DNA from: Lytechinus pictus
Taxonomy: Eukaryota
Reading direction: 5' to 3'
Length of the DNA stretch: 64,000 nucleotides
Assembly (NCBI RefSeq): GCF_037042905.1
Contig: NC_087250.1
Location: 8,062,001-8,126,000 of the forward strand
Under the pieces are notes generated by a model. The model made no database searches. It was not told where the DNA came from and was given only the letters and a program-made list of their open reading frames with translations. Position numbers and translations under genes: made by a program. Of this stretch, positions 20 to 43,100 are shown piece by piece (position 1 is the first letter of the stretch; the number at the start of each line of letters is the position of its first letter).

Positions 20-1018
20 ACCATATTAAATTTCACTCCATAGCCAGATGTCTAATAATAAACAAGTACTGACCAGTTTGAACTTGACCCCATGGCCATA
101 TGTCTTAATAAACAAGTACTGACCGGTTTGAACTTGACCCCATGGCCATATGTCTAATAATAAACAAGTACTGACCGGATTGAACTTGACCCCATGGCCA
201 TATGTCTAATAATAAACAAGTACTGACCGGTTTGAACTTGACCCCATGGCCATATGTCTTCATAAACAACTACTGACCAGTTTGAACTTGACCCCATGGC
301 CATATGTCTTAATAAACAAGTACTGACCGGTTTGAACTCGACCCCATGGCCATTTGTCTTCATAAACAAGGACTGACCGGTTTGAACTTGACCCCATGGC
401 CATATGTCTTAATTAACAAGTACTGACCGGTTTGAACTTGACCCCATGGCCATATGTCTTTCATAAACAAGTACTGACCAGTTTGAACTTGACCCCATGG
501 CCATATGTCTAATAATAAACAAGGACTGACCAGTTTGAACTTGACCCCATGGCCATATGTCTTTCATAAACAAGTACTGACCAGTTTGAACTTGACCCCA
601 TGGCCATATGTCTTATAATAAACAAGTACTGACCGGTTAAAACTTGACCCCATGGCCATATGTCTAATAATAAACAAGTACTGACCGGTTTGAACATGAC
701 CCCGTGGCCATATGTCTTATAATAAACAAGTACTGACCGGTATGAACTTGACCCCATGGCCATATGTCTTCATAATCTACTGACCGGTTTGAACTTGACC
801 CCATGGCCATTATCTTAATAAACAACTACTGACTGGTTTGAACTTGACCCCATAGCCAGATGTGTAGTAATAAACAAGTACTGACTGGTTTGAACTTGAC
901 CCCATGGCCATATGCCTTAATATACAAGTACGGACCAGTTTGAACTTGACTCCATGGCCATATGTTTAATAATAAACAAGTACTGACCGGTTTGAACTTG
1001 ACCCCATGGCCATATGTC
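20..1018. repeat. About 51-bp tandem array (about 19-20 copies) derived from the 3' end and donor of exon 1143-988
   Basis: Unit aataaacaagtactgaccggtttgaacttgaccccatggccatatgtct is continuous with the exon. Confidence 0.95.
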
Positions 1019-7100: not shown

Positions 7101-10100
7101 TACTTCTTGAATGTTTTCATTTGAATATCATTCATGTATCACCATGCAATCTTCCATTTGTTATCAAAGGTGAATTTCAATGAACATTTTAACCAATTAT
7201 TGAATGTAAACGTATAAGTAAAACATGGAATGCAGACCTGCCAACCTCTGGGAATGAAAAACTGTATTCTGTGAAAAAAAAACTGTATTTTCAAAAAAAA
7301 AAAAATCCTGTTTATGATATCAACTAATGATTTAAAGCTCCTCTTGTGAAAGACCTGCAAAGTGTGAACGGACCATTAGGGTGAATCTTGTTACATACCA
7401 TGAGCCTTATTGGATGATTCTGAGCTCGGTAGACGGGGTCGGTCACATATATTACTGCGTTCTCTTTCAATCTCCCATCACTGTGTATTTCATAATAAAA
7501 TACTTGGCGCACTCGCTCATCGCGGCGCTCAAGCTGCATGCAAGCTAAAATGCGCACTGCTCTTGCAGATGGAAAAAAAATATATATTAAAACATGTGTA
7601 TATCTTCACCCTGGTTTTAACAAAATGATTGAAAAAAAAAAAAGTTACCTGAAATTACATTGATCTAATAACCATGTTTGTGACGTTTTATGAAATAGAG
7701 ACATATAGAGATTATTTTTCTCAATAAATTACGATTTAGTAAAAAAAAAAATTATTTTAATTATTATTTTTTTTTGCAAAAACGTACTAAATACGGCTAA
7801 AACGTACTGGTTGGCAGGTCTGGGAATGTTAAAGGCTTGCTGGGGAAATTTCATTATATTGTAAATACAATGGCTTTTAACTCAGTAAATAAAATCGCAT
7901 TGATCGATCCTTCTGATAAGTCTGAAAAAAAATCTATGAACCAGCAGGATTTGAAGCTCTCATCTACGGATTGCCAGTCAGCATATAACTAGGTTGAAAG
8001 CCATAAGTTGTATTTACAATATAATGAAACTTCCCCAGCAAGCCTTTAACATTCCTATTCATCGTCCATGGTGGACTAATATAAGAATGCATGTCAGATT
8101 GAATCAGGGGAACGGAGGGCTTTGTTCTTATTTCATCGTGACTGTGCCATGGACCAGTGATGGCCCGGTGGTACAGCCGCTGACCGGCAATCAGTAGATG
8201 AGAGGTTCAAATCCTGCTGGTTCCTCGATTTTTTTTTTGACTTATCAAATAGATCGATCAATGTGATCTTATTTACTGGATTGAAAGCCAATAAATTGTA
8301 TTACATATACTACACTACAAATTGGACGCATCCAAGAATGACACATCAATGGTAACTCTGGGCCCCGTCTTACAATGAGTTATGATTGATCTGATCAATC
8401 AAAACTATGGACGACCAGCAACGTAAACATCTATTATGCATGTTTGTTCAAAATATTTTCTAGCTATGATGTAAATTCATGCATTCATTATTTTCTTGAA
8501 AATTCACCGTGCTTCTCTTTGCATACAAAAGACATTGTGCAATTTTTTTAAAGAAAAAAGTTATGACACTGATGGATTTCCATAGAGTTATGATTGATCG
8601 TAACTCTTTGTAAGACGGGCCCAGGCTTCGCGATCTGACATGAGAATTGGGTAATCATGTAAGAAATTATTTGTATCCTACATATATGTAATTAATAAAA
8701 TTTAAAGGTCTCCGTCCTCTTGTTTTATGAGGGAGGCGCAACAAAAAGTACATCAGAAATAACTTCCTTCTCACTACGAAAACAGTGACCAGCAAATCTC
8801 GTACTACAGTTAATTACTGAGGAGGAGATAGGTGGGATTTCTTGCAGAAGGAAAAGACGCCATGGCTGGGACTTGAACCCACGTCCCTCTGATTGAAAGA
8901 CGAGAGTCGTGACCACTAGACCACGGCACCCCCTGACAGAAGTTATAAGCTACTGTGAATCCTTGCGCTCGATTGGCTGGGAGCTAATTAGTCAGTGAAT
9001 ACACCATGAAGTCCTCTCCATGGTCTTGTTTCACAAAGATTTAAGTATGACTTTAAGTCACACTTTAATGCTGACACGTACATGATATGCAACGCGCGAT
9101 CTTATTGATCACTACGCAGTAGTGCGCATCCTCTTGGCATGATCTGACCAATGTGGTCATGCCTTTTATGCCGCACGCAACGAGGCATTTAAGTGCGACT
9201 CTGATTAGGGGGTGTTGCAAGAAAATATTTGCAATCGATTGCAAATATTCTGTTGCAATCTTACAACTGATAGATCAAGTTTAATTGTAGCAAAGGAGAT
9301 CACACTCCATGTTTCGAGAAGCAGATTAGAAATCAATCACAGATTTGCAATTAATTGCAGGATATATGATTGATTTAGGCTCAAATAATAGACCTGCAAT
9401 TGATCGCAAGTTTCTTGCAGCACCCGATATGTCATACAGTACTCTTTGTGAAGCCCCCTGTAGTAATAACAAACTTAGCAAATTAAATTGAATGATTCCT
9501 GTGACTTTAAAGAGAAATTCCAGTATTTGCAGTAAACACTGATTTCATGAGAAAGTCTGTAAAACAAGGCTTAATTGTCAGTATATCATCGAGGATCTAG
9601 ATCTGGTACAGTTACATAAACTGAACTTTGTGAAATCTTGAAATCTACGCTGAAAAATGTTCACACTGAAGATCACCAACACAGATAGGCACACGTGGGA
9701 CAGTGTATTATTATTGCTAAAATAAAGACCCGACGGAAGTGACCGAATCCGCGCTTATTTTGCTTATTTCTCAGCAATTACACAATTTCTTCCAGAATCC
9801 TTTGGCACATATTTTTTATTCATACAAACAGACACTTAGGTGGTCATTATATTAGATTCTGTAAAAAGTCATTTTTAGATCGTTACCAAAACTGGAATTT
9901 ATCTTTAAAGTTGTTATTGTAAATTTGTTATCGTAAGTTTTATGACACCCTCCATGGGTCTTACCGATTCTTCTGCATCGTCGAGGTGGTAGTCCGCAGT
10001 CCCAAGTTGGCTGATCGTACGCATCAACATCCCGTAACCTCTATCAGCAAAGTTCCCTCGGCTTCCTGTAACAAATCACGAAGGGTAAAATATTGGATTT

Positions 10101-13100
10101 CTGTTAACCCTAGTGAAATAGGCCTGGAGCAGATCATGGATTTTCCATAAGGGGGAAATAAAGCCTTCACTCTTGGATGAAGGTTAGTTATGTCACAAAA
10201 GATTTGACAAGAAAAAAAAAAGGGTTTCATTTCAGCATGCCCCATATTTTCCATCCGAATATCTTTTTATTGCTGTCAAAAGGAGAGATCCATCACTGAG
10301 GTAGGCTCTCAGTACAAAAATAATAAATAATAATACAGGATTTGTATCGCGCACATACATGTATCCACCTTGCTAGGTACTCCTGTCGGTACCCATTAAA
10401 CTCCCCCGGGTTGAGTGCAGCACAATGTGGGTAAATTTCTTTGGAATGGAACCCATGTCCTTCAGAATGAAAGACAAGAGTCTTAACCACTAGACCACGA
10501 CGCCCCACAAAGGGGCATTAAAACTTTTCCCACCAGCAGCGATGTATAGTGCCACTTAAAGTCCTCAACAAATTTAATCTGGCCAGTTTCTGAACCCATA
10601 ATGCAACATTTTGTGCAGCATATTCCTTTAAATAACCTCACATCTGAAAACCAATACAAATTCATTCTGCCGACCCATTTTATAAAACAAATGATGCACG
10701 ACGTGAATTGAAATGAATGAATGGAAGATACATGTATCTTACTAGGGGTTGGTGAGGTTCGCATCCAAATCCGAAAACCAAAACAAATTCATTCGACCGA
10801 CCCATTTTATAAAACAAATGATGCAAGATGTGAATTGAAATGAATGAATGGAAGATTTCTTATTAGGGGTTGGTGAGGTTTGCATCCAAATTCATTCTAC
10901 CGACCCATTTTATAAAACAAATGATGCATGATGTGAATTGAAATGAATGAATGGAAGATATCTTACTACGGGTTGGTGAGGTTTGCATCCCAGTCCGAAA
11001 AACAATACAAATTCATTCTGCCGACCGTTCTTATAAAACCAATGATGCACGATGTGAATTGAAATGAATGAATGGAAGATATCTTACTACGGGTTGGTGA
11101 GGTTTGCATCCCAGTCCGAAAAACAATACAAATTCATTCTGCCGACCGTTCTTATAAAACCAATAATGCACGTTGTGGAAATGAAATAAGATATCTTACT
11201 AGAGGTTGGTGAGGTTTGCATCCAATCAGAAAACCAGTCCTCAAGGAGCTCATAGTCGACTTTGATCTTTACCGATGTTGTGTCGTCCATGTCTGTATCT
11301 GTCAGTCTTGTGATGCATTTATCAAGGACAAAACGACAGACACCTGAAATAAAAAAAGATCAAGTTACAGAATTCATTATCATTTCAAAATGATTTAAGC
11401 ATTGGGATTCACCATGTGAATAGTCGTGAATAGGAATGATGGGTTTGGTGTAATAAATGTAAGAAAATGAAAGAGGTATAGAGGAATTGAGAGGCATAAA
11501 GGCAAATAGTAGAGTGGTAATTAGTACAGTATCATTTCTTGGACACAAGTTCTGAAGAGAGAGAAATATTCAGATGAGACTGGGAGATAAAAAGGAAAAA
11601 AAAATGGTTGATTGAAGTAGGCAAGTGGGGATGATGTTTGTAATAATGGTGATGATGATGGTGGTGATGAAGATGGTGGTGATGATGATGATGGTGGTGA
11701 TGATGGTGATGATGATGGTGGGGATGATAATGATTGTGGTGATGATGATGATGATGGTGATGATGATGCTTGTGGTGATGATGATGGTAATGATGATGAT
11801 GATGGTGATTATGATGGTGATGATGATGTTGGTGATGATGATGATGGTGATGATGATTGTAATAATGGTGTTGATGAAGATGACGGTCATGATAATGATG
11901 ATGATGGTGGTGGTGATGATGCTGATGATGATGTTGATGACAATGGTGATGATGATGGCGATACTGATAATGATGATGACAGTGGTGCTTGTGATGACGA
12001 TGACAATGTGACTTACCTGGCATAGTTGTGATGAGTTTCCTCATGGGGGTAGTTTTGTTTGCTCCTTCGCCGGTAGAGTGAGTCATCAGATACCGCCACT
12101 TCTCTTGTGATAACAGAGTTACGGCAACCATTCTATTGGCCAAAAAAAAAATTCATTCAAATTAATTATTTATCAGGAAGCATTGTGGTGTGCTTGTAAA
12201 ATAAAATTTACATTCTAACAGTGCTTTTAATAGTACATGTAGCTAATCAAAATCATTGCAAAGATATGTTCCACTGCAACCTACTCATGATTACAGATAG
12301 AATGGTCCAAGCAATTCCTTCTCTTCACATCGCACTCTAAGAACTCCGTTTTGATTGGCTGCTGAGGCATGATACCATGGTGATGGGGCTCAGCAGCCAA
12401 TCAAAATCATGGTTACATGGTAAGCTTATGCTCTACTGCAACCTACTCATGATTATGGATAGCATGGTCCAAGCAAGTTCTTCTCTTCGAATCAAATTCT
12501 AAGAACTTGATATTTATCAATATATGTTTGTTATATGTTTGTATTTTTGTTGTAGGGCCTCCAAGGACAACATTATACCAATTACTGATGGAGCCACCCT
12601 ACTAAAAAAAGACTTATAAATAAATAAATAAATAAATTTATTGGCTGTTGAGTCAGTTTACCATGGCAATGGGGATCGCCAGCCAATCAAAATCATGTTT
12701 ACATGGCAGAATATAAGTGCCACTTACTCATGACCATTACGGATAGCATGGTCCAAGCAATTCCTCCCCTTCGCGTCACACTCAAAGAACTTGATTTGAT
12801 CCTGATCCTGCTCAAAGAGCATCTCCACAATCAGAATATTCCCTATCTTACAAGCATACATCAATGGGGTCATCTGCACAAGGTCAAAGGTCAACAAGGT
12901 CATTACAAATGGTACAAGTTGGAGGTAAGATAATCATTTAGCAATCATTTCATGAGCATGGAAGCAGACTTCAAGAAAATTTCTTACTTTATAGGCGTTA
13001 CATAAACAGGGTCATCTACACGAGGTCAAACAAGGTCATTACAAATTACGAGTATTTGAAGATGCATTAGTAGTTGGTGTTACATGTATTTCCTGGCTAA

Positions 13101-16100
13101 TTAGTTCTAAGCCAATTAGATAAATGGGCTTCAGTGAAAATCACTATTTGTTCATTGAAATGCTATTTGATTTTTTAAAGGAAAAGTCCACCCCAATAAA
13201 AATTTTATTTGAATAAAAAGACAAAAATCCAACAAGCGTAACACTGGAAATTTTATCAAAATCGGATGTATAATAACAAAGTTATGAAATCTTCAACTTT
13301 CACTTAATTTAGCAAAATAGTTATATGCACATCCTGGTCGGTATGCAAATGATGTGATCAGTAAAAATTGAAATATTGTATAATTCAAACAATAAAGACA
13401 AAAGAAAACTTCGGTGATGGACATCACTGAATCTCCCATTTGCACGTCACTGCATTGTGCATATAAAGCGAAACCTTAAAATGTCATAGCTTTATTTTAC
13501 ATCCAATTTTGATGAAATTTTCAGCATTACGCTTGTTTGATTTTTCTCTTTTGATTCAAAGCAACATTTTTGCTGGGGTAGACTTGACATTTAAGTGATG
13601 ATAATAAAAAATGACTTACCCCTTTATTGTCTTGAATCGTCACAAGTGACTTGTCAGTCTTCAGGAGAAGCTTGGTGGTTAGTTTATGGCCTTTTTTGAT
13701 CGAAAGATGAAGAGGTGTTTGTCCTAAACTATTCCTAATCAATCAAAGAAAAGAATGATTGAGTGACTTGTCTGTCTTTAGAATAAGGTAATTGGTGAGT
13801 TTATTACCCATATTGAAAGCAAGATGAAGAAGTGTTTGTCCTAAACTATTCCTAATCAATCAAAGAAAACAATCATTGAGTGACTTGTCTGTCTTTAGAA
13901 TAAGGTAATTGGTGAGCTTATTACCCATATTGAAAACAAGATGAAGTGGTGTTTGTTCTAAAACATTCCTAATCAATCAAAGAAAACAATCATTGTGATG
14001 AGTGACTTGTCTGTCTTGAGAAGAAGCTGGGTGGTTATTATTTTATGAGCAAGATGAAGTGGTGTTTGTTCAAAAGTATTCCTAGTCAATCAAAGAAAAG
14101 AATCATGATGATGATGATGATGAGTGACTTGTCTATCTTGGCGACTAGTTTATGAGCCCTTTTGAAAGCTAGATGAAGCGGTGTTTGTCCTAAACTATTC
14201 ACAACCAATAAAAAAAAAGAATCATTGTGATGCGTGACTAAACAGTCTTCAGGAGAAGCTTGGCGGTTATTAGTTTATGAGCCCTTTTGAAAGCAATATG
14301 AAGTAGTGTTTGTCCTAAACTATTCCTAATCACTCAAAGAAAACAACAGTGATGAGTGACTTGTCTATCTTTAGAAGAAACTGGGCGGTTATTAGTTTAT
14401 GAGCCCTTTTGAAAGCAATATGAAGTGTTTGTCCTAAAATATTCCTAATCACTCAAAAAAAACCATCATTGTGATGATTCCTAGTCAATCAAAGAAAACA
14501 ATCATTGTGGTGAGTAACGGGTCTGTCTTGAGAACAAATTAAGTGGTAAGTTTACAACTCATTTCGAAAGCAAGAAGAAGTGTTTGTCCTAAACTTTTCC
14601 TGATCACTCAAAGAAAACAATCATTGTGGTGAGTAACGGGTCTGTCTTGAGAACAAATTAAGTGGTAAGTTTACAACTCATTTCGAAAGCAAGAAGAAGT
14701 GTTTGTCCTAAACTTTTCCTGATCACTCAAAGAAAACAATCATTGTGGTGAGTAACGGGTCTGTCTTGAGAACAAATTAAGTGGTAAGTTTACAACTCAT
14801 TTCGAAAGCAAGAAGAAGTGTTTGTCCTAAACTTTTCCTGATCACTCAAAGAAAACAATCATTGTGGTGAGTAACGGGTCTGTCTTGAGAACAAATTAAG
14901 TGGTAAGTTTACAACTCATTTCGAAAGCAAGAAGAAGTGTTTGTCCTAAACTTTTCCTGATCACTCAAAGAAAACAATCATTGTGGTGAGTAACGGGTCT
15001 GTCTTGAGAACAAATTAAGTGGTAAGTTTACAACTCATTTCGAAAGCAAGAAGAAGTGTTTGTCCTAAACTTTTCCTGATCACTCAAAGAAAACAATCAT
15101 TGTGGTGAGTAACGGGTCTGTCTTGAGAACAAATTAAGTGGTAAGTTTACAACTCATTTCGAAAGCAAGAAGAAGTGTTTGTCCTAAACTTTTCCTGATC
15201 ACTCAAAGAAAACAATCATTGTGGTGAGTAACGGGTCTGTCTTGAGAACAAATTAAGTGGTAAGTTTACAACTCATTTCGAAAGCAAGAAGAAGTGTTTG
15301 TCCTAAACTTTTCCTGATCACTCAAAGAAAACAATCATTGTGGTGAGTAACGGGTCTGTCTTGAGAACAAATTAAGTGGTAAGTTTACAACTCATTTCGA
15401 AAGCAAGAAGAAGTGTTTGTCCTAAACTTTTCCTGATCACTCAAAGAAAACAATCATTGTGGTGAGTAACGGGTCTGTCTTGAGAACAAATTAAGTGGTA
15501 AGTTTACAACCCATTTCGAAAGCAAGAAGAAGTGTTTGTCCTAAACTTTTCCTGATCACTCAAAGAAAACAATCATTGTGGTGAGTAACGGGTCTGTCTT
15601 GAGAACAAATTAAGTGGTAAGTTTACAACCCATTTCGAAAGCAAGAAGAAGTGTTTGTCCTAAACTTTTCCTGATCACTCAAAGAAAACAATCATTGTGG
15701 TGAGTAACGGGTCTGTCTTGAGAACAAATTAAGTGGTAAGTTTACAACCCATTTCGAAAGCAAGAAGAAGTGTTTGTCCTAAACTTTTCCTGATCACTCA
15801 AAGAAAACAATCATTGTGGTGAGTAACGGGTCTGTCTTGAGAACAAATTAAGTGGTAAGTTTACAACCCATTTCGAAAGCAAGAAGAAGTGTTTGTCCTA
15901 AACTTTTCCTGATCACTCAAAGAAAACAATCATTGTAGTGAGTAACGGGTCTGTCTTGAGAACAAATTAAGTGGTAAGTTTACAACCCATTTCGAAAGCA
16001 AGAAGAAGTGTTTGTCCTAAACTTTTCCTGATCACTCAAAGAAAACAATCATTGTGGTGAGTAACGGGTCTGTCTTGAGAACAAATTAAGTGGTAAGTTT

Positions 16101-19100
16101 ACAACCCACTTCGAAAGCAAGAAGAAGTGTTTGTCCTAAACTATTCCTAATCAATCAAAGAAAAGAATCATTGTGATGAGTGACTTGTCTGTCTGAGAAT
16201 AAGTTATGTGGTGAGAAATGTCTTCAGGTAAGACATCAACAGTCAACTCATTAGTACAGTCAGTAAAACTCTTACTAGGGTTCTCAGAATGCATACTGGA
16301 TTAAGCATAATTTTAGATGCAATCTGCATAAATGGGTCAAAACTAGTATACAGGCACAAACCTTTGGTTTTCAAAATTCGCATAGTGCACATTGCAAAGT
16401 CTGAAGTAGTGAGACTAGACTCACTACATGTATGTACTGTGGCTGCCTCTTATTTGACAGACAGACGGAAAGTTTCGGGTCTACAGTAGTCTTTACTCCA
16501 GACAGGGTGTAATTGGCTAGAGTGTCCAATTTGAGTCTGCGCTTGCAGACTAGTCCAAAACTACAGATTCAAAGTCATTTCGGCCTACAAGTTTGAAAAT
16601 AATCCTATCTTACTGTTCACAGAGTCTGACATCATCATCGTCCTGGTTCTTCAGGATAGCTTTGGCCGTGTCTAAATGACCCCCCTGGGCGATCAGGTGC
16701 ATGATACTGTTATCTTGGGAGTCTTTCAGATGGAGAGAACGCCTGTGCCATGATGCAAACTCCAATAGACTCCTACATGTACATAAGAATGAAAACATGA
16801 ATTGATGACATTGTAACTGAGGGGTTATGGATCAAGATACAGGCATTTATTTAAACTGGGTTCCAAAAGAAACTGATCAAACTTTACAAGGGCGCTTCTC
16901 AAATTTCACTCAGTCAAAATGAACAATATTTTTACACAGGCTAGCTTCAATAATCTTTACTACACATATGTCAATAATTAAGAGATTGGTTCAATCACAG
17001 AGAGGTTATAGCCCCTCAAATCAATTGGTTTCAGAACCCAAAGTCATGAAATGGCAAAAGAACAACCACTGAAAATGAGATGCGATTAAACAAACTTCCC
17101 ACTTTATCACACATTTCCTTCACAGGCCACTTTAAGTGAATGGCTTGATCTCAAAGAAGCAACAGGAAGTCAAAATAAAAATGTTAAATGACTAGAAGAA
17201 TCACACAGGAACAGATCCCCGGGAATGTCCCGGTAAGCGAGGGATAATCTGAACTCAGCGTTTTTCTGTGTGTGTCTGAGTTAGATACACAGAGACACGC
17301 TCCGTGTTCAGATTATCCCCCACTTACCGGGACATCTTCGGGGGGGGGGGGGGGGGTGTTGTATGCTGCTATGTGATTGTTACAGTCATTTAAAATTTTG
17401 ATGTTAATTTCCTATAGCTTCTTTTTTGATTGAGCCAAGCACTAAAACATGCCAGTGAAGACATGTATAGTAAACTCAGAAGTTTGATTAGTCATGTCTC
17501 AATTTCAATGGTCTCTCTTTTGCCACTTTGCATGTTTCGTGACTTTGGATTCTGAAAACAATTGATGTGATAGGCTACACTCTCTCTGTGATTGAAGGAA
17601 TCTCTTACTGTGCTTAGTAAAGATTACTGTATAGAAACCATGTTATTCAAAATAGTAAATGGGCTACATGGCAAAATGGATGTAGACCAAATGTGACCAG
17701 CGACTCCAAAACCACCAATAAGTCGCTAGGGAAGGTTCTCTGTAATAGTCAAAATAGTAAATTGGTCTTCAAAAAGCCAAAATTTAAAAATTGGCTTAAT
17801 TAATATCTCAAAATTCATTTTGGTCAAGTTATTGTTGGTTTTGGGGTGGAAAAGGAAAGTAGAAAAACTGGATTTATTCCGATACTTACTCTGTCTGTCC
17901 TTTGGCTGCACAGAGCAGGATAATCTTCTCCATCTCCATAGATTCACATCCTGTACTGATGTCATCAAACCGGTTTAGCAACTCCTACAAGAGAGAGTTA
18001 AAGGTAAAAGAAAGTAGTTGCAGCAAACAATAATTTCATGAGAAAGTCTTTGAAATCAAGGTGAATGCCACCATATTATCATATATCTATTTCTGGTACA
18101 TTGAAATCACCTCATCTTTGTGAAATCATGAAATCTATGCTAAAAACGGATAATTCTGATGATCACTAACAAAAAAAGGCATATGCGGGACGATGTATTA
18201 ATATTATTTGGAATAATACCGGACATTTTATGAAATTCCGTGCTTATTTTGCTCATTTCTGAGCAATTACACATTTTCCTCCACAGTCATTTGGCACATA
18301 TTTTCTATCTATACATTCTTACACTTGGGTGGTCATTTTATTGGATTCTGTTTGGACTCATTTTGAGAACGTTACCACAACTGGTGTTTATCTTTAAAAT
18401 TATAAACACAAACAAACTTCCAAAGAAATTTACAAACAATTCTTCTCTAAATCAGGGAGGAAGATTTGGATCCTTTCTACATTAAATTTCAAGAAACTAA
18501 CTTGATTTTAAGGCATTTAATCTATTCAGTATACTTCTACATAAAATTTCCTGTCAATCCATACCAAATTCCGTCAGATTTTTTTTTATGTGTCTACTTT
18601 AAGGACAATGTAAAGGTACTCGGTAAAAATGTCAGCAGTATCTAGGACGCTTCTTGACTCTGCTGGTGGTGGTATACGGTCCTATGACATTTGCTACGGC
18701 GACAACTGCTCCGCTGTAAATTCCACACACTAAAGGAATGACCAACTTAAACCCTGGATATATTACTATACCCTATCATAAAACTAACACAAAACCCCTA
18801 TTCCAAACCTAACCCAATTGTCGGCAGAGCAAATGTCGTATCACCTGGTATACAAATGATAGAGGTAAAAAAAAGTCACAGGTAAAAGCAAACTGAACGT
18901 ATTACCAATGTCATAATTGGTATCTTTAAAACATGATACATAGATGAATAAATTAGACATACCTGAAGCACCAAAGAAAGATTTTTTTCGACTGAGATCC
19001 ATTTGATGAGTTCAATCAGGATGGATGAATCTTTGATGTGTTTGAGAAGGACAACCAGGCTATCGCTAGATCCTTTCAAAGCAGTGAACTTCAGCAGAGA

Positions 19101-22100
19101 TGGAGATCCGTCAACTTCGTAGTCATTTAAATTTAGTTTCACCTCCTTGTCATGACTGAAAATAAAATATAAATAATAATATTAATAAAAACGGCATAGG
19201 CCTATTTACCCAGGGTAGCCACTTCAGTTGCGAAAAATGTTCTCCCAATGGGCCTGCCCTGCAATTATTATTACCCCGACTATAGAGTACCGAAGTGATG
19301 ATGTCACAAAAAACTTTTTTAGCATTTTAGATACCATATTTTGGTAGAGCATGATGAAAAACCCCCACTACCAAAATTTGGTGGGAATCGGTCCATTGGG
19401 GCCTTAGATATGACCTCACGAATACATAATTAGCCCCATTGAAGTCAATGTATTATTGGTCTGGTTTTAAATATTAGGAACCAGGTCAATGATACATTGA
19501 CTTCAATGGGGCTAATTATGTATTCATGAGGTCATATCTTGGGGCCCCATGGACCGATTCCCACCAAATTTGGATTGTGGGGGTTTTTCATCATGCTCTA
19601 CAAAAAGTATGGTATCAAAAACCCTGAAATGCTAAAAGTGAAAACTGATGACATCACACTTCCATACTCTATAGCCTAGGCGCTCAAGCATGCAAGGAAT
19701 TTCTTCCTACCGGGTACCCATTCACCTCACATAGGTTGAGTGCAGCACAATGTAGATGAGTTTCTTGCTGAAGGAAATTACGCCATGGCTGGGATTCGAA
19801 CCCACGTCCCTCAGATTGACAGATTAAAGTCATAACCACTAGACTACGACACACCCACATATATAGGGAAACCAATATTTATATCAAAACAAGTAGGCCT
19901 ATAGAGTATACTTACATGTAGTTCTTCTTTAGTACGAACACATAACTTAGCAACTGGTATGAAATAATGTTATTCATTAATGAAAACGACCAACGTCAGC
20001 GTTCATCCGGTCTGACATATCAGACCATTTTAGTCAAAATATCGATGGTGAGATTTTTCACAGAAAATGAAAGAACAAGTCATACTCTATACATAGTTAA
20101 CTTTCTATCCATCGATTTATTTTAGTTTCGGAGAAAAGAGAGCATTTTCAAGACAATGGCATAAATCTGATTGGAAACGTGTACTGCGGCAGAGCAAACA
20201 ACAGCTGCGTGCATTTAATGAGCAAACATGCGGTCAGCAAACCTTTCTATCCGTATGCATTGACTTTGCAGATGAAAGAATGTTACCACAGTTTGCGTGT
20301 ATTGAAAATGCAATCAGGACTGGTGTATTCCCTATGATCTTTTTTTTGCACAGGGGAAATGTAAACCGCTTTAACTAAAATTACAATCATGTACAGTATT
20401 TCATTTGTGATATTTTCTCCTATTCTCAGTACTGTGTAAAAATTGAAATATCGATGTCAAGCAAATATCTAGCTTTTCCAACTATGTAGTTTTTCTGGCA
20501 ATAAAAATATCGTACGGCTGGGGACAAAAATGTGGAGATTACAGTAAACTTTTAATTCATTTTTGTCTGAAACGGGTTTGCGATGTCGTATCTGTGATAC
20601 AACGGTGCGGATGTACAGTACTGAGTAATTCTTGTTTATTACACACACACATACCTTTGATACATGATGCATATTTCTTCTGTGACTTCGGCATAATTTC
20701 CCCTGCAGGCATAGTGCAGAGGCGTCAGCCCTTTTGAATTCTTTGCATCGAGGAGTAGAGGGCAAAGGTCGTGGAGCATATGGAGGATATCGAGGTGTCC
20801 CTGTTTGCAGGCAGTGTGCATGATGGTAGATCCGTAGCGAGACTTGACGTCCAGAAGATAATTGGCAGAGGCATTTTCTTTCTGATCTTCTGGACTTACT
20901 GAAAAAATTATCAATAAAGAAATAAAATGTTATAATGATACTAAACTGTGGAGGATATCTAGATGTCTGTTTGCAGGCCGTGTGCATGATGGTAGATTCG
21001 TAGCGAGACTTGACGTCCAGGAGATAATTGGCAGACACACCCTCCTTTTGATCTTCTGGACTTACTGAAAAAATTTATCAATAAAGAAATAAAATGTTAT
21101 AATGATACTAAACTGTGGAGGATATCTAGATGTCTGTTTGCAGGCCGTGTGCATGATGGTAGATCCGTAGCGAGACTTGACGTCCAGGAGATAATTGGCA
21201 GAGGCACCCTCCTTTTGATCTTCTGGACTTACTGAAAAAATTCATCAATAAAAAAATAAAATGTTATAATGATAATACATGTAGGCTGTGGAAGATATCA
21301 AGGTGTTTGTGTGCATGATGGTTGATTCGTAGCGAGACTTGACATCTAGGAGATAATTGGCAGACGCATCCTCTTTCTGATCCTCTGGACTTACTGAAAA
21401 AAATTGTCGATAAAGAAGAGAAAGAGAGTATATGAATGATATCAAGATGTCAGTATGAAGGCCGTATGGATGACTGACTTGATGGTAGATCCATGTACGT
21501 AGCGAGACTTGACGTTGAGGAGATAATTGGCAGACGCACCCTCTTTCTGATCTTCTGGGCTTACTGAAAATAGTAATTAATGAAGAAGAGAAATATATAT
21601 TCTAGACTGTGAGAGATAGCAAGAAAAAAGGCTATGAACCATGCAAAAATTTTGCAGAATTGCTGCGATATTGATCGATTGCGCTCCGAAACAGAATAAA
21701 AATGGTTGCACCCATGCATGGGGATTACAATGCTTCAGGCTGATAAATTCAAGCGAGACAAGGCAAAAGCGATTTTGTGTCTCGCCCAATTTTTGAAAAT
21801 AACCAGAAATATCTTGATTTGCTAGGGCACGCAACAGAATTGTATCGAAACCATGACGTGTTTCCTCCGTTTAAGAAATACCCCACCAGGTTATAACACA
21901 GGAACCCCTTTGCCCTGCGTGTTATGTCAATGGGAGCTCAAGTGGGGTATATTCGACACCCCACTTTCAGTTTTTGGGAGAGTTTCATTTCTCTCTTTTA
22001 AACTGGGGAGGGGTGGACTGACAGCTGATAAGAGCTGATAACACACAGCAACCAATGATGACCACAGCGAGTGAAGTTGGATTGCAGCTGTCCACCTTAC

Positions 22101-25100
22101 GTAAAAGTATAAACAAACTTTTAAGAGCTTCCTGGCCCTTCCTGGCTGACAGAAATCTAGGAATGATTAATTTGTATTCTATTTGTTTTAGGACATTGGC
22201 ATATCGAAATTTAGATGAAGATCAAAATGGAAGTTTGAACGATGCAAAATGACCCACAATTGGCGAAATTAGAATAAGTAAAACAAAAGAAGTTCTGGAA
22301 TATTGCATGTCTCTCTTCCTCTCTCCCTGCCAGTGCTGCCAGGCAGTGAGGGTCACTGTGAAATGACTGGGATGGAATAACACTTGTCATAAGACTACGT
22401 AAACTTTAATGTTGACCTCAAAATGAACTTTGACCATACCATGTGACCGCCCAACACAATAGCATGCAGGTCCCTACATCTACCATCCAAGTTTGGTTGA
22501 AAAGTGATTTACGGTTGCAGAGTTATATGTCATAAGAGAGTCTTGCACGAAAACTTTAATGTTGACCTGAAAATGACCTTTGACCTTACCATGTGACCTC
22601 CGACTGCAGCATGACATCCTGGGGAGCGTTTCATCAATATTTTCATCCGACAAGTTGTCAGATCTGACATCTTTCCTTGATTCTGATTGGCTGAGAGGCA
22701 CTGTTCCTATGGTAACTGTCGGATAAACTGGTACTTGTCGGATAAAATGTCCGACAAGTCCTTTCATGAAACGCCCCCAAGGTCTCATAACTACATCGAC
22801 AATACAAGTTTTTGTGAAAAGTGACTTGCGGTTGCGGAGTTAGGTGTCATAAGAGAGTCTTGCATGTAAACTTTAACGTTGACCTGAAAATGACCTTTGA
22901 CCTTACCATGTGACCTTCGACTGCAGCATAACATGCAGGTCCCGCAAGCCCATCTACCATCCAAGTTTGGTTGAAAAGTGACTTACAGTTGTTGAATTAT
23001 GTGTCAGAAGGTTTGTGACGGACGGACAATGGACGACATTTGGATCCCTAAGTCTCGCCTTCACCTCTGGTGTGCGAGACAAAAATTGAGAATTCCTGCT
23101 CAGTAATATTATTTTCATAGCTACTTGCTTGATTTATGGTTTGGAAAAATCGTATCATGTAAAAGTTTTAATATATAGATCAAGATAAGGAAATTGAAGT
23201 CTGAAAGTGCTTGATATTCTCGGTCTTTGGTGACACTGAATTTTTCTATGTTTTCTTTATTTTAGTGGTCCACTGGTCTGGAAGAAATTGCACCGGTGAC
23301 TGATGGCTTTGGGCAGGCACCATTGAACCATCAGAGTTCGACTCAGGCCTACTTTAAATATCGATATTTTATTATTGTAGAGTATGAAAATGAATAGAAA
23401 ATTAATGATTGTTGCCAATTTGAGGTTGCCATTTTGATGAACAAATGATGATTAATCTCGACCCCATGAAGCTATGTATCTTTAGAAATTAAATACCTAC
23501 CACAGAGCATACAGCACCTGATCAGCATCTCATTACCCGTCTTGATAACCTCGTGGAGCACCGTCTTCTGATAGATGTTCTGAGCCAACAAAATCTGCAA
23601 ATAACCGAGAAAAAAGTATTGCATTATAGGCTACTTATTTGGACTAAATTCTGATCAGGGGAGTCTTTCATCAACATTTGCGTCTGACAAGTTGTCTGAT
23701 CTGGGGCCTGTTGCAGAAAGAGTTGCGTTTAAACGCAAGTACAAAAATCAATCGCAAGTCCCAAATGCGCGCTGTTGATTGGTTGAAAATCAAGTTGCGC
23801 ATAATTTTTAGAGTTGCGATTGATTGCAACTCTTTCTGCAACGGGCCCCTGACATCCGTTCTTGATTTTGATTGGCTGAGATGCACGGATCGCATGGTAA
23901 ATTTCGGATAAAACAGTACTTGTCGGATAAAACGTCTGACAATTCCTTTCATGAAATGCTCCCCAGGGGGAGTGTTTCAACAACATTATTGTCCGACAAG
24001 TTGTCAGATCTGACAACTTTTCTTGATTTTGATTGGCTGGGAAGCACTGTTACTATGACAACTGTCGGGTAAAACAGGACTTGTCGGATGAAATGTCCCA
24101 CAAGAGCTAGCTTTCATGAAACGCTCCCCAGAGCAACTCAAATATAGTTAAATTTGGACTTACACTGGAATATATAGAATAATTTTTTTAAATTCCCCCC
24201 CCAAAAAAATCAACTGATACTGTTTTTAATATCCTCAAAAGCAAGTGTGCCCAATATCGCATCAAAATTAGAGCTAAATATTTGATTTTCTTCCAAAAAC
24301 ACTCTGGCCCGTCGCCTCTAAATTGATGCTTGTTACCGAGGATACAGAACCAATGAGTTCTCATTTTTGTTTTGATTAATGTATATAACAGTGGGCTCAT
24401 TAATGCCGTAACCTTAGTAACGGTTGATAATTTTGCTCCTATTATACGCTTTCTCAATATACTCGCTGAATTAAGCTTAATTGATGATGAAATCTGTGTG
24501 AACCATGGTTTTAAACCACTACTTCAAAACCACCTTTGACAAATTCGAGCCTCCATGTCCATTAAGGGATGGGAAAAGGGTGTATGGGGGGGGGGGGGGG
24601 GCGGGGGAGGTGCCAAGGACCCTATCTAGGTCAATTTATTCATATATATATATATATTTTTTTTTTATCGGGAGGGGGGGGAGGTGCCAAGGACCCTATC
24701 TAGATCAATTTATTCATATATTTTTTTTGTGTTTTTTTTTCGGGAGGGGGGGGGGGAGGAAGGAACATTGCTTCAATTTAGTGGTGACCTTTGTCCTTTC
24801 TCGCATACATTCGTAATTCCGAAGCTTCGTTATTCCGAAGGTTCGGATATTCCGAAGGTTCATTATTCCGAAGGTTCGTATTTCCGAAGGTTCGTAATTC
24901 CGAAGGTTCGTTAGTCCGAAAACGAAATGAGGTTCGTTATTCCGAAGGTTCGTTAATCCGAAAAAGAAATGAGGTTCGTAATTCCGAAGGTTCGTTAGTC
25001 CGAAAACTAAATGATTAACTAACCTTATTTCGTTTTCGGACTAACGAACCTTCGGAACATCGAACCTTATTTCGTTTTCAGATTATTGAACCTTCGGAAT

Positions 25101-28100
25101 AACGCCACAAATGTTCGGATTAACGAACCCTTTTACGTTTTCGGATTAACGAACATCGAGGTATAGGCAATTTACGTGTTTCGGAATTACGAACCTTCGG
25201 AATAAAGAACCTTCGGAATTACGAACCTTTGGAATTACGAAGTGTAACCGTCCTTTCTTACCTTCCGCATGTCACATCCTCTATGCTGACAGCCCGAAAG
25301 GAATCGCAAAGCGTACTTGACGTTGCCTTTTTTCAGGATGATGTAGAGGGGGGTGTTCTTGGCGGCATTGACGGCGAGGGGATTGGCTCCGTGCTTCAGA
25401 AGCAAGAGGGCGCTCTCAAACTGACCGTTGTGGCAGAGGATGTTGAGAAGGTTTGAATTGACCCTTCCAAACTTGACTGGTTGCTGTGTAGAGGGAACAG
25501 AATGAAAAGAGGTTTATTTCTTTCACAAGCCTAGCTCACACTTTTATGTTCTCAAGCTGCATATTGCTGCATTAGGGGAAAGCAGCAATACGCTGCCTAA
25601 AGTACCACACTCTACGCAGAAAAATGTTCGGTTGCAAACACACATTTGCGTACAAGCTCATATAAAGTTGCACATCATAAAACACAGTGATCCAAGTTAA
25701 AGCAAAGGAACAGTAAATACATGTACATGTAAATCAAAGCAGTAATAATTGCACACTCTAAATTGGCAATGCAATAAAACGAAATAACTATTTAAAATAC
25801 AAAATGGCATATTTTCATATGAATTTTGCCTTCAATATTCATTTTGACCCATGTTACATGTATATCCATATTTCTCTTTTTCAAGTATGAAAAGAAATAC
25901 AAATTCACCAATTATTGCCAATTTAGGGAACAAAGGTAAATAAATCTTGGCAATGTCATCAATACCTACATCCACTCGGATATGTGGATGTGAGAGTAGA
26001 GCTCTGACCACCATCTTCTGACTGGCAAATTGGCAACACATTGAAAATAATGAAATCACTGTTTAAAAATGCAAATTGGCAACAATTTCCTAAAATTCTT
26101 CATTCTCATTCATTTAGACTCACACATTTCCATTTTTTTTTCAAAGTATGAAAATAACAAGTGGAATGCCTCTGGCTGTCTCACCTGCATCACGCGATTC
26201 AATATAGCAGCAGTGCTGACGTTGAAAACTACTATAAAATAATTATTCACAAAAAACACCATTCATATAATGATACAATACTAAGTTCATTGATATTTGA
26301 CCTTGATCATGTGACCTAAAACTTGTCAGTGATACTTGATTACCTACCCCTTTATCCACATTTTATACACTATATCTATAAACTTTGAAAGTTATGACAG
26401 CAATCTAATAATTACCTCTAAAATGGCAAAATTTCAATGACCTTAAATGACCTTTGACATTAGTCATGTGATCTGAAACTCGCACAAGATGTTCAGTGAT
26501 ACTTGGTTACTCTAATGTCCACGTTTTATGAACTAGACCAATACACTTACAGAGATATGATGGTAATTCAACAAATACCTCCAACATGGCCAAAGTTCGT
26601 TGACCTTAAGGACGTTCCACAGTTAAAGTGAAATCCATGTCATTTTCACCAAACTTTGCACATAGATACTTTAGAACCTTAATATTCGAAATATGCAAAA
26701 ATTAACACAGGTCCATGTGCTTGATTTTTTGCTATAGAACTTCAAAGTTCACCCAAATTGATGTTCTTAAGAATTGCGCATTTAAAAGAATTTGGCATTT
26801 TTAGACCGCCCAAGATTACTACAATGAGTTTAAACCTGTATTACTCAGTCAAAATACATGAAAAAGTCATCAAATTTCGCAAGAGAGTTAATAATTGTAT
26901 CGTTAGAATGGAGAATATATTTATAGTGCTATTTGTTTGCAATTTTAAGTTTAACAGCACTGTCAGTTCTTAAAAATGGCGTAAAAGATAACAAAATCCC
27001 AATCTAAAAAATGTGAAATTTCAGTAACAAACTACAAAAGTACAATAAATGCTGCACTTTATTCAAAATCCATGTCATTTTCACCAAAATTTGTAGAGTT
27101 GTAGAGGAAGGTATACATAAGAGGAACAAACATTAAAAAATAGGGCTTCATGTGCTTGTTTTTAAACTATCAGCAATTTTATTAGAGCAAATGTGCTTTT
27201 TAGAACACCAAAAATGCGCCGAATGCTTTGTATCTATGTGAAGAAAAAATCAAAACCACTCTACCATTTATTCAAACTCGGGGTAATATTCGTGATTCTT
27301 GGCAGCACTGCAGGGTAAAGTATTTTGAAATTGTAGAGAATCTTTTTTTGAATGGTCCATGGAATAATTCAATATTTTAGCTTCATGAAATAACGCATCG
27401 GATCTGCAGTTAAAGTGCAGAAGATGTGAAAAATCAGCACATACCCGCAGCTAATTAATCACCTGTTCATCCATTGTGACGTCAGCGCGCAGAGTGTAAA
27501 CTATGCGCAGATCATAATGCGCACAAACATAACTGTGGAACGTCCTTAAATGACTTTTGACCTTGGTCATGTGACCTGAAACTAGGACGGGATGTTCAAA
27601 GATACCTGATTACTCTTACGGCCAAGTTTCATGAATCAAATCTATAAACTTTCAAAGTTATGATGGTAATTCAGCAGATACCCCATTATAGCCAAAATTC
27701 ATTGACCTTTTACGTTGGTCATGTGACCTGAAATTCGCACAGGATGTTTAGTGATACTTGATTACTTTTATGTCCAAGTTTTATGAACTAGACCAATAAA
27801 CTTTCAAAGTTATGATGGTAATTCAACAAATACCCCCAATTTGGCCAAAGTTCATTGACCCTAAATGACCTTTGACCTTAATCATGTGACCTGAAACTTG
27901 CACAGGATGTTCAGTGATACTTGATTACTATTATGTCCAAGTTTCATGAATCAGATCCATAAACTTTCAAAGTTATGATGGTAATTCAACAGATACCCCC
28001 ATTTTGGCCAAAGTTCATTGACCCTAAATGACCTTTGACCTTGGTCATGTGACCTGAAACTCAAGCAGGATGTTCAGTAATACTTGATTAACCTTATGTC

Positions 28101-31100: not shown

Positions 31101-34100
31101 TACATCATTGTCATTATCATAAATTATAACAATATCAAAGGTATAATTGGTTTTATAAAACGGGTTCAAGGATGTAGCCAATAGTAAGCGTGTATTCAAG
31201 TCACATGTTCTGGTTTAATTCTACGCAATCTCCTACCTGTGATATTTTGTGCAGCACTATGCATTTTGAAGGCATCATCTTACCCATAGTGCGTAAAAAC
31301 TGAGATGGCATCTGAAATACGCGTTCTTTCAAAGAAAAGGCTATCAGTACCAGCGCTTACTTAGGCCTGCATACTAGATATGTCTGTGATGTTTAATAGA
31401 AAGCAGGTACGGGTGTGACCGCTTCGTCTGTGCGCTCCCTAGAATATTTGGAGGGATTACAACACCCTTTCCACTACAAACTTACACTGCCGACCTGTTC
31501 TATGAAACAAATAATGCACATTTTAGAAATTGTGATGTTATTGACGATGCAGGCATCTCGGGTATTCGCAATAACATGAAAAGGTACTCGGTGCAAGTGC
31601 CTCGTGCCTTCACATATGGCAAATACCCTCAAATGCGCTGCATCGCCACAACAGACTCCTAAATATGCATTATTTGTTTTATATCATATCCTACCTGCCC
31701 CATGTCGGATGAGCATCTCAACCCAAGGTATTAAGACCTTCATACAGGCATAGTGGATAATGCTGTTACCCCTCCCATCTTTTGTGGCTATCTCCTTTGA
31801 GATCTGTTCCGGGGTGAGGTTCTCCAGGACTCTTTTGGCTTTCTCTAAATCAGGTTGCTTGGAGTTTACTAACTGGATACAAAATGAGAGAATTTTTTTA
31901 CATTCTTTTTAAAAATAAAGATTTCATTTCTTCAAAATAAAATCACAATAACCATTAATAATAGCAGCAATATAATAAATCATATACATTAGTAGAAAAT
32001 GAGAGGATTTTGTAAAAAAGAAGATTTTTAAAAACTGTTATTAATTTCACTACGCAGAAGTCACTTTGAGCAGTTCAATCTTAAGGTCTCAACGTTGGAA
32101 AGTTACAAATGCATAATTTCTATAACAAATTTACTATGAGCCAATGAGATGATTTCAGCAGCTAACTGTTATTCTAAATTTGTTATTGTATCAAGTTTTA
32201 TGAAACGGACCAGTGTCTTTCTGAGTTTGATGTTAATTGATCCCACCTAATAATCATATCTGATACACATCTGAAAAAAACACTCAATTATACACATACT
32301 GTACACACAAAGCTGCATCCTTATCTACGACGTAGTCTTGAAATACATTCCCATTAAAACAATGAATTATTTCCTTTGATTTTTTACAAAAAAATATATC
32401 ACATAGAAAATTTTGTGAAGAAATAACATGTTTCAGTCTTCCAGGCACTTCTGTTTTCAATATCTAAAACATTATACCTTACGAAGGGAGTTCCCCTCAT
32501 TGTAAGAAAGGAATGTACTCTTAGATTTGCATTTACAGTATTTTCTTCTCTTTACTGCACCATGAGTATCTTTTTATATGGATACCAGTGCATTTCCAAT
32601 GTCCATATCATTTTTATCATTATTGCAAGAATAAAATGTACTAAAATGTGCCTTTAGCACCTAACAAGGTGGATATGTGCGCAATATAAATACTCTATAT
32701 TATTATTATTTATATTAAGAAGGGAGTTCCCCCTCATTGTAAAAATATGTGAAGGGAGTTTCCCTCATTGAAAGAATAGAATGTGCCTTACAAAGTGACT
32801 TCCCTTCGTTGTAAAAGATGGAATGCACCCTAAGAAGGGAATTCCCCTCATTGTAAGATGCAACAAACCTTAAAGAGAGTTTACCTCATTGTAAGAATGG
32901 AATGAACTTTAAGGAAGGAGTTCCCCCCATTGGAAGAAAGAATATACCTTAAGAAGCGAGTTCCCACGGACTTTCCTGGCCAAGATTCTAAAGCTTGCTT
33001 TCCCGCCGGGCATCTCGGGCTCCGATTCCGACTGTGAACTTTCCGACTCTCCTTCGCTCCCGGAGTCATTGTCGGTGAAAGGGGGCGAGGGGGTACCCCT
33101 CCCTTCCTCCTCCTCATCACTGGAGTCTGTTGAGGAATCGCTTCGTTGACTCAGGTTCCACACTGCATGGTTTCGGAACCGCTGTGGGTACCGCTTCATC
33201 ATATTCTCGTAATTCCTTTGTTTGGTTTCAAGCGAAAGAAAAATAAATGAGGAAAACGTGAAATAATTGAATTCAATTTTATTCTATTCGGTAATACCAG
33301 GCCAGTCGGGAATACAACAACTCACGATAATAAGAATGAAATGACCAAATCCATTAAAAAGATTCATAAGTGGCTACTATAAAAAATTACCATTTAGATG
33401 ATTCCCCCCCCCCCCTGGCCATTGCGGGAAATTCAACGTCCTTCCAAATATGGCAATCTCTTAAATATGGGACATCGCTGGCTCTGCTGGGTGAATGGGA
33501 AATGAAGTTAGAGTCTAGATCTACCGGTATTGCAGTCAGACTCAGAGCAGAGGTGAATGGAGCTGAGCAAACACATCCGATTTTAGAGAAAAAAAGAAGT
33601 TGCTAATAATTATTATTTCCTGATTTCATTCACTTGTTCACTGCAACCACCCTGCCTATCTATGCAGTTCACTACACACACTTACAAAATTCTTCAAAAT
33701 ATCACTTTAGTTTGTAACCAAAAATAATTATTTCCATAAAATGTTATTTGTAATTTACTTTTCATAAAACTTGGGGATCATTTTTTTTTCACCAGAGAGC
33801 TCAAAAACTTTAATTTTGAACATTTTGTTGTTTAGGCCCTTTATTGGTGGTAAGTAATATTGCTTCAGAATTGTCAAAAAACAATCTCTTACTTTTAATT
33901 TAGAAAACAAAAATAATCAAAAGATTCAATTTACTTGAACAGAGCCAAGTAATGGAAACTGACCGTGTAAAAAAAAAAGGATTTGCCCCCAAGAACAAGA
34001 GAAAATTAGCCAAAATGCAACCTTATTTCACCACACAGGGAGTTCTAACACTAACAGAGAACAAGGTTATATCTAATCAGTTATATCATATCCTTGTTCA

Positions 34101-42044: not shown

Positions 42045-42262
42045 GAAACCAAAACCATTTTTTTCAGGGAAACGAAAGCCAATTCGCACGAAAAGTCTAT
42101 TTGAAACCAAAACCATTTTTTCAGGGAAACGAAAGCCAATTCGCACGAAAAGCCAATTTGAAACCAAAACCAATTTTTCAGGGAAACGAAAGCCAATTCG
42201 CACGAAAAGCCAATTTGAAACCAAAGCCAATTTTTCAGGCAAAAGGAATCCAATTTGAAAAC
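42045..42262. repeat. 60-bp tandem repeat (about 3.5 copies) in the retroelement leader
   Basis: gaaaccaaaaccattttttcagggaaacgaaagccaattcgcacgaaaag repeated. Confidence 0.9.
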
Positions 42263-42329
42263 ATACTTGAAATCTTTGGAAAGTTCTAGAAAATAATGTG
42301 TTATCACTTGATGGTATTTCTGTATATTC

Positions 42330-43100
42330 CACCATGGCTACATTTGATGTTGAATAATTCCTAGCAATGACAGAATAACTGGCAAACATTGAATTGGAAA
42401 AAGAGAAAATCAGAAAACATTTAATTGGAGAAAATAAAGATGAAAGAAATGAGATTGTAGTATCAGTTAAAGTTGAAAGAAATGGAGTTAGCTCATGCAA
42501 TACTAACTGTACTCAATTTAAATTTCCCAAGGCTTTGATGTAGCGAAGAACATTTGCCTTGTGCCAAAATTTGATGAAGGTGGAGTTGATACTGTTTTGT
42601 GTCATTTGAAAAAGTGGCCAAGAGACTGAATTGGCCTGAGGAATACTAGACCCTTCTCCTCTAAAGAGTTTTTGTTGGAAAGGCTGAAAAAGTCTATTCT
42701 TTGCTCTCTTAAATGCAATCATGTGACTATGCTACAGTAAAAGAAACAATTCTCAATGCATACGAGTTGGTCCCAGAAGCGTACAGACGTAAATTTAGGA
42801 GCATGCAAAGACAATCAGGCCAGACATATGTGAATTTGCAAAGGACCAAGAGATGATGTTCGATGAGTGGTACAGATCACTGAAAGTTGACAAAGATTTT
42901 TTTCACCTTAGGTAAATTGTCCTATAAGAATTAAAAAAGAGTCTTGCTTTTGGCATTAAATCTCACTCAGATGACCATATAGTTACTGAAGTCAGTATGC
43001 AGAAATAGTAGCTGATGAATTTGAGGTCACACATAAAGGTAGTGGAGATCATAATAGGCCTCCTTTCAAGAATTATTGGAAGAAGAAAGGTAAAGGGTAA
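42330..43100 (+). pseudogene. Decayed Gmr1-like Gypsy gag (SCAN-related capsid region)
   Basis: Frameshifted segments read GFDVAKNICLVPKFDE...FEKVAKRLNWPEEY and DYATVKETILNAYELVPEAYRRKFR. Confidence 0.8.

What the first reader, a model, noticed from the sequence alone, without database searches (positions are those of the whole stretch)
13640..16195. 2.5-kb array of about 20 decoy acceptors with a young homogeneous core
Seen: the unit is the acceptor plus most of an ankyrin exon, without the donor. Fourteen copies at an exact 119-bp period are nearly identical and split into two blocks by one variant (actcattt in 8 copies, accca in 6). Copies nearest the exon are older and degenerate, and the outermost copy (16146) restores the native gattag|GAATAG acceptor. 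Core copies keep the AG but carry an in-frame TAA. Inference: recent unequal-crossover or slippage expansion. The spliceosome must pass about 20 AGs, and use of a core copy would truncate the channel before its TM domain or trigger NMD.
Basis: partly seen in the sequence, partly recalled or inferred. Interest (0 to 1): 0.7.

Follow-up and report, generated by a model that had tools for sequence, protein, structure and literature searches.

The report
Splice-acceptor "mirage" repeat, urchin TRPA gene
An intron of a sea urchin TRPA1-like ion channel gene holds 20 tandem copies of the next exon's splice signal and first 85 bases; the few transcripts seen appear to skip them, and this kind of repeat is already known from lancelets, so it is most likely tolerated duplication debris rather than a regulator.

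Summary
The array is real. In intron 10 of a minus-strand Lytechinus TRPA1-homolog, 20 units (about 33 nt intron tail plus about 85 nt of exon 11) and a 36-nt stub precede the true exon 11. Fourteen units are a near-identical 119-nt core in blocks of 6 and 8; every decoy leads to a premature stop. A model using only the last acceptor matches XP_063956890.1 at 959 of 959 residues. One spliced contig leaves exon 10 into sequence like exon 11, not the core; RNA depth was too low to see rare products. This is a "mirage", described in amphioxus (PMC3087553), and the scan has noted it many times in this genome and others. The NMD/regulatory reading has no support here but is not excluded. The more interesting point lies outside the given coordinates: 9 of 11 locus-specific local duplications in this gene span a splice junction, against 1.3-2.0 expected. 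That hints at junction-biased duplication, but the signal fades under harsh detection-bias assumptions.

The parts
16614..16772 (-). Exon 10 (159 nt) of the TRPA1-homolog; its donor opens the array-bearing intron 10
   Evidence: spliced to exon 9 with 0 differences in run X3 record 7
16147..16215 (-). Upstream edge: remnant of one more exon-derived unit tail plus the native-type acceptor of copy 1
   Evidence: local alignment of this stretch to exon 11 positions 52-101; cluster edge 16215
16028..16146 (-). Copy 1, boundary unit: acceptor identical to the true one over -18..+2, body like the core
   Evidence: 94.1% to core in the register that includes its acceptor
15433..16027 (-). Core copies 2-6 (G variant, shared with copy 1), 119 nt each, AG kept, second AG at -9, TAA at codon 21
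14481..15432 (-). Core copies 7-14 (A variant), 119 nt each
14445..14480 (-).
13735..14444 (-). Degenerate copies 15-20 (113-125 nt, 72.6-90.6% alike); copy 17 lacks AG; copies 19 and 20 carry a weak GT giving a 44-nt frameshifting cassette
13620..13734 (-). Authentic exon 11 (115 nt, ankyrin repeat) with a strong donor; the only unit that is open and has a donor
   Evidence: Pfam Ank above cut-off; present in 5 of 8 first homologues by motif and in P0009
988..33202 (-). Host gene: first 18 coding exons (959 codons) of a 1259-aa TRPA1-homolog; the rest lies beyond the window start
20774..21593 (-). Second acceptor-type array (167 nt, 4 decoys before exon 7)
12833..13046 (-). Single acceptor-type copy before exon 12, with its source
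12241..12800 (-). Two donor-type copies after exon 12, GT kept, with their source
10639..11236 (-). Donor-type array after exon 14 (103-121 nt, 4 copies, 3 with GT)
7304..7484 (-). Identical 181-nt copy of most of exon 16 plus its donor, lying upstream of the true exon
38..1018 (-). Donor-type 52-nt array after exon 18 (about 19 copies)
25895..26041 (-). Donor-type copy of the exon 4 end, 2.5 kb downstream of it
32476..32962 (-). Degenerate donor-type copies after coding exon 1

Best explanation
A 'mirage' minisatellite. One tandem duplication across the intron 10/exon 11 junction made a unit of intron tail plus exon head (shown by anatomy). Further rounds gave the degenerate copies; later one already diverged unit, related to copies 19 and 20, was amplified to 14 near-identical copies by unequal exchange or slippage, in at least two bursts marked by the 6 and 8 blocks, with the boundary unit escaping homogenisation (inferred). 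The gene survives because only the last acceptor is followed by an open exon and a strong donor, so exon definition picks it and the array leaves with the intron (use of an exon-11-like acceptor is supported by limited RNA data; the mechanism is inferred). Any rare mis-splicing would be cleared by NMD as noise, with no regulatory role.
For: Unit anatomy and variants. Unit tree groups the core with copies 19 and 20 (support 0.86). Open 959-codon model, identical to XP_063956890.1 at 959 of 959. No usable donor in the array. Run X3 record 7 joins exons 9 and 10 with 0 differences; depth on the copy 1 start equals about 25 letters of that contig and is 0 on the rest of the unit, as expected for exon 11 (26 letters) and not for copies 1-14 (115-117 letters). 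X3 holds 0.12 of the words of 12050-14480, where exons 11-13 alone predict 0.106. Decoys are decaying: indels, a lost AG, stops in 21 of 21. Same architecture, concerted evolution and boundary exclusion in amphioxus BflGb6. Eight more junction duplications in the same gene argue against a special role for this one.
Against: Decoy acceptors score as well as the true one (4.3-5.9 against 4.7 on a crude matrix) and 20 of 21 keep AG. RNA depth over exon 10 was about 1x in X15 and below 1x in X18, so rare use cannot be excluded. The 25-letter reading is inferred from bin depth, not from a listed piece, and would also fit copies 16 or 20. The public protein is an annotation model and may not be independent of this DNA.
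Confidence: 0.8

Rival explanations
1. Copy-number-tuned unproductive splicing: array acceptors capture part of the exon 10 donors, giving stop-bearing transcripts removed by NMD, so array length sets channel dose.
For: 20 of 21 decoy positions keep AG, they score like the true acceptor, and 21 of 21 lead to a stop before the membrane domain. Human repeats at exon-intron boundaries can create alternative splicing in young paralogs (PMC2812944, passages).
Against: No donor to define a poison exon; zero depth on the 3' half of the core unit in 3 of 3 RNA-type runs, though at very low depth; core acceptors have gained a competing AG at -9; F7 pseudo-sites and amphioxus mirages stay silent.
Confidence: 0.08
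2. The 14-copy core is partly an assembly artefact (over-expanded or collapsed repeat); the old degenerate array is real.
For: Copies 7-13 are identical. No run held half of the words of the neighbouring stretch (0 of 24 listed), so no raw DNA check was possible.
Against: Ordered 6 and 8 blocks, one private variant and a distinct boundary unit look like real array history. A contig of organism A shows three acceptor units at the matching place, so an array exists outside this assembly.
Confidence: 0.07
3. The array is raw material for new exons or introns, with copies 19/20 or copy 1 on the way to becoming cassette exons.
For: Weak GT sites in copies 1, 19 and 20; the model is proposed for mirages in PMC3087553.
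Against: The cassettes would be 37 or 44 nt and shift the frame into stops; the homologues listed show a single exon 11 sequence with no insertion.
Confidence: 0.05

Closest known systems
Amphioxus 'mirages' (globins BflGb6 and BflGb9, Adh3, troponin C, PGBD5; PMC3087553 and PMC3902484, passages read; the Adh3 and TnC papers seen only as cited there)
   Same: Tandem units spanning an intron-exon boundary; BflGb6 units are intron 3' end plus exon 5' part, 150-160 bp, 81-100% alike; many but not all keep AG/GT; concerted evolution inside, boundary units excluded; reported not to disturb splicing.
   Different: Echinoderm, not cephalochordate; 20 units against 3-6 in BflGb6; one gene here carries nine junction duplications of both polarities. 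Length polymorphism and somatic instability were not tested here.
Human F7 intron 7 37-bp VNTR (PMC1557585; abstract and Discussion read)
   Same: A minisatellite whose first unit spans a splice junction, leaving functional but normally silent pseudo-sites; only the authentic site is used.
   Different: Donor-type, 5-9 units, sites identical to the authentic one; here acceptor-type, 119-nt units, 73-83% alike to the true exon.
Variable internal tandem repeats at exon-intron boundaries of human segmental-duplication genes (PMC2812944; passages read)
   Same: Tandem repeats at boundaries in a recently duplicated gene family (several close paralogs here).
   Different: Those cases form new introns or longer coding repeats with transcript support; none is seen here.

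Membership tests
Mirage minisatellite | Head-to-tail repeat whose unit spans an intron-exon boundary of the host gene | tested here: met
Mirage minisatellite | Many but not all units keep the AG/GT signal | tested here: met
   20 of 21 decoy positions keep AG
Mirage minisatellite | Concerted evolution inside the array, boundary units excluded | tested here: met
   copies 2-14 at least 98.3% alike; copy 1 94.1%; copies 15-20 71-82% to the core
Mirage minisatellite | Regular mRNA uses only the authentic site | tested here: inconclusive
   public protein model and one contig agree; read depth about 1x, rare products not excluded
Mirage minisatellite | Copy-number variation between alleles or somatically | not testable with these tools
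   no DNA run holding the locus at high share; organism A contig shows other unit spacings, about 103 and 126 nt, but may be a paralog
Poison exon / regulated unproductive splicing | A stop-bearing cassette with both an acceptor and a usable donor | tested here: not met
   best in-array donor 3.6, below all 18 true donors (3.9-12.1) on a crude matrix; core best listed GT -0.5 apart from one at 3.4 in copy 1
Poison exon / regulated unproductive splicing | Isoform rises when NMD is blocked | not testable with these tools
   no such data in the runs laid
Tandem mutually exclusive exons | Duplicates are whole exons, open in frame, each with both splice sites | tested here: not met
   21 of 21 decoy starts run into a stop; units lack the last 30 nt and donor of exon 11
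TRPA-type channel (host gene) | N-terminal ankyrin repeats followed by an ion-transport domain | tested here: met
   Pfam ankyrin matches in 5 of 10 exon stretches scanned, 3 of them above a curated cut-off; the 96% identical P0002 carries precomputed Ank and PF00520. TRPA1 against basal clade not tested.

The most novel reading that the evidence does not exclude
In Lytechinus, local duplications arise preferentially at exon-intron junctions. A candidate cause (my inference, untested): in very polymorphic genomes, or between close paralogs, strand invasion starts in conserved exons and stalls where homology drops at the intron edge, and template slippage there copies the junction. Mirages would then be the footprint of a junction-targeted mutational process, scaling with heterozygosity across animals, and a natural genome-wide test set for how exon definition ignores dozens of good splice sites. 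This gene gives 9 of 11 locus-specific duplications on junctions against 1.3-2.0 expected.
Probability: 0.3. Interest if true: 0.6.

Novelty: new member of a known kind. Interest (0 to 1): 0.22.

Why it matters
The array itself matters little: it is a clean, large example of a described repeat type in one member of an expanded TRPA-like family. Two things are useful. It is a natural acceptor-side counterpart of the F7 donor model, where 20 upstream AGs of similar strength appear to lose to the last one. And the density of junction duplications in this gene makes the open question of how mirages arise (called unclear in PMC3087553) testable genome-wide. It is also a practical trap: junction reads with 20 nt or less of overhang cannot tell exon 11 from copy 1.

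Tried and rejected
No whole genome is held for this window, so no genome-wide count or paralog-intron comparison was possible. The run search listed no RNA holder on record and no run with half of the words (0 of 24); this blank is not used as evidence. Raw RNA runs X15 and X18 (about 6 and 25 in 100 of each run read) gave about 1x or less on exon 10; most laid reads came from dispersed intronic repeats. None of the 15 joints shown, of 28, links donor 16614 to the array; 13 were not shown. A first exon model with wrong bounds gave 42 stops and was corrected. Mutually exclusive exons and in-frame cassettes were rejected. Folding energies of units were computed without shuffled controls and are not used. 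Pfam on 9 ORFs of the other half of the window gave one sub-cut-off match, so no second gene model was built and that half serves only as a rough background. Literature searches for an echinoderm mirage or a junction-bias study listed none by title or abstract start; the library lacks most subscription papers, and supplements were not opened. PMC5438368 (passages) did not help to place the channel. A sequence look-up of earlier notes with P0009 found nothing.

Full report
Observation. The array is in the sequence as described. TRF reports 14478-16212 as 14.6 copies of 119 nt at 98% matches (score 3309) and a degenerate stretch 13645-14471. On the minus strand there are 21 unit starts: 20 decoys and the true exon at 13734, plus a 36-nt stub acceptor at 14480. 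Copies 1-14 lie exactly 119 nt apart; one G/A site splits them into 6 and 8, and one private change lies at the copy 2/3 border. Copy 17 has no AG, so 20 of 21 decoy positions carry one. Read from exon 10, 14 of 14 core copies stop at a TAA in codon 21, and 21 of 21 decoy starts reach a stop.

Host gene. A search with one membrane-domain exon returned 8 proteins, 7 of them named TRPA1 homologs of Lytechinus and Strongylocentrotus. Mapping these gave 18 exons at 33202-988, all with GT donors and AG acceptors, open for 959 codons. This model equals XP_063956890.1 (P0009, 1259 aa) at 959 of 959 residues, 98.8% to an L. pictus record and 96.3% to L. variegatus. The species name of P0009 was cut off in the output; L. 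pictus is my inference. Exon 11 starts at codon 560 and the hydrophobic exon 17 at codon 801, so any decoy product would lack the membrane part.

History of the array. Each unit is about 33 nt of intron tail plus about 85 nt of exon head, without the last 30 nt and the donor. Core copies 2-14 are at least 98.3% alike but only 72.8-73.7% alike to the true exon unit; copies 15-20 are 72.6-90.6% alike to each other and 75.2-82.9% to the true unit. The tree joins the core to copies 19 and 20 with support 0.86. So the core is a young amplification of an old, already decayed unit. Copy 1 has the native acceptor and a core-like body, and exon-like sequence continues upstream of it; it is best read as a boundary unit that escaped homogenisation. 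In run X1 (organism A, probably DNA, not the window's closest match) a 536-nt contig aligns to 16343-16127 and then shows two more acceptor units at spacings of about 103 and 126 nt. The array therefore predates the core and exists outside this assembly, though that contig may come from a paralog.

Which acceptor is used. On a crude matrix from the gene's own sites, decoys with AG score 4.3-5.9 and the true acceptor 4.7, so sequence alone does not disqualify them. No GT inside the array reaches the range of the 18 true donors (best 3.6 against 3.9-12.1), and the weak ones would give 37- or 44-nt frameshifting cassettes. I laid 4 of the 24 listed runs on 16030-18100, which holds exons 9 and 10 and copy 1. 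Contig X3 record 7 (707 nt, depth 6.12) joins exon 9 to exon 10 with 0 differences and has 233 more letters downstream. Depth in the bin of the copy 1 start is 2.19, which equals 25 letters of that contig, and 0 in the next bin. Exon 11 would lay 26 letters there and copies 1-14 115-117. Copies 16 and 20 would also lay 26, but X3 holds 0.12 of the words of 12050-14480 where exons 11-13 predict 0.106. Raw RNA reads covered exon 10 about 1x (X15) or less (X18), so rare isoforms were out of reach. The best reading is that the last acceptor, the only one followed by an open exon and a strong donor, is used; exon definition as the cause is established knowledge applied by inference.

Beyond the coordinates. 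A uniform self-BLAST found 28 clusters of local same-strand duplication in the window, 18 within the gene span. Seven of these are repeats dispersed elsewhere in the window; 11 are locus-specific, and 9 of the 11 span a junction of this gene (3 acceptors, 6 donors, of 35 junctions). Random placement expects 1.33-1.96 of 11. Dropping the focal array, P(8 or more of 10) is 1.2e-6 to 2.4e-5; counting the 7 dispersed repeats as well, P(8 or more of 17) is 1.8e-4 to 2.6e-3. If junction copies are three times as easy to detect (one copy is held by selection), the first stays below 0.01 but the second becomes 0.05-0.23. Unit lengths were set by me from TRF and BLAST spacings, it is one gene, and the gene was chosen because of an array. 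The other 31 kb holds 2 locus-specific clusters of 10.

Comparison with what is known. Earlier notes of the scan gave me the term 'mirage' and two papers, which I then read. [quoted passage not shown] PMC3902484 (passage) adds PGBD5 and troponin C. PMC1557585 (abstract and Discussion) shows that F7 donor pseudo-sites are functional yet silent. PMC2812944 (passages) shows that boundary repeats can alter splicing in young human paralogs. The array meets three mirage features tested here, one is inconclusive and one could not be tested. It fails the tests for a poison exon and for mutually exclusive exons. Six searches listed no echinoderm mirage paper and no junction-bias study, judged from listings only.

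Verdict. A real, well-observed array; a new member of a known kind, already noted many times by this scan in this genome and others (8 of 8 notes listed are of this type). Most likely neutral (0.8). Interest 0.22. The boldest reading not excluded is a junction-targeted duplication process (probability 0.3, interest 0.6 if true).

Noticed in passing
window 7304-7484 (-): A 100% identical 181-nt copy of most of exon 16 plus its intact donor lies 1.1 kb upstream of the true exon, the opposite side from other donor copies. An AG at its start would define an 82-nt frameshifting pseudo-exon (7480-7399), a better poison-exon candidate than the focal array; its pyrimidine tract is poor.
   Followed up: partly
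window 1-33202 (-): Nine of 35 junctions of the gene carry local duplicates: acceptors of exons 7, 11, 12; donors of exons 1, 4, 12, 14, 16, 18.
   Followed up: yes
window 38-1018: About 19 copies of a 52-nt unit with the exon 18 end and donor; already noted as e1-7787481.
   Followed up: partly
window 16275 (-): A strong donor-like site (score 8.5) lies 130 nt upstream of copy 1 in intron 10, with no obvious partner acceptor checked.
   Followed up: no
window 5041-5519, 24793-25257, 43464-44019: Three copies of a dispersed element built of 16- and 42-nt repeats with internal inverted arms.
   Followed up: no
window 1528-2612, 22397-23010, 26283-28367: Satellite-like arrays of 151-163 nt sharing a short recurring motif; intronic, not at junctions.
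   Followed up: no
window 11646-11979: A degenerate 3-nt microsatellite of about 111 units starts a few bases after the exon 13 donor.
   Followed up: no
window 42044-42900: A 57-nt tandem repeat inside A-rich sequence that looks by eye like a decayed retroelement gag region; not tested.
   Followed up: no
window 62316-62804 (-): A proline-rich ORF of about 155 codons with no Pfam match, probably an exon of another gene.
   Followed up: partly
window 53694-56369: Arrays of 187-197 nt units enclosed by 247-nt inverted arms, transposon-like.
   Followed up: no
proteins P0001, P0002, P0003, P0008-P0012: Several close TRPA-like paralogs per urchin species, some split into fragments in an annotation; their introns would show whether mirages are shared among paralogs.
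   Followed up: no
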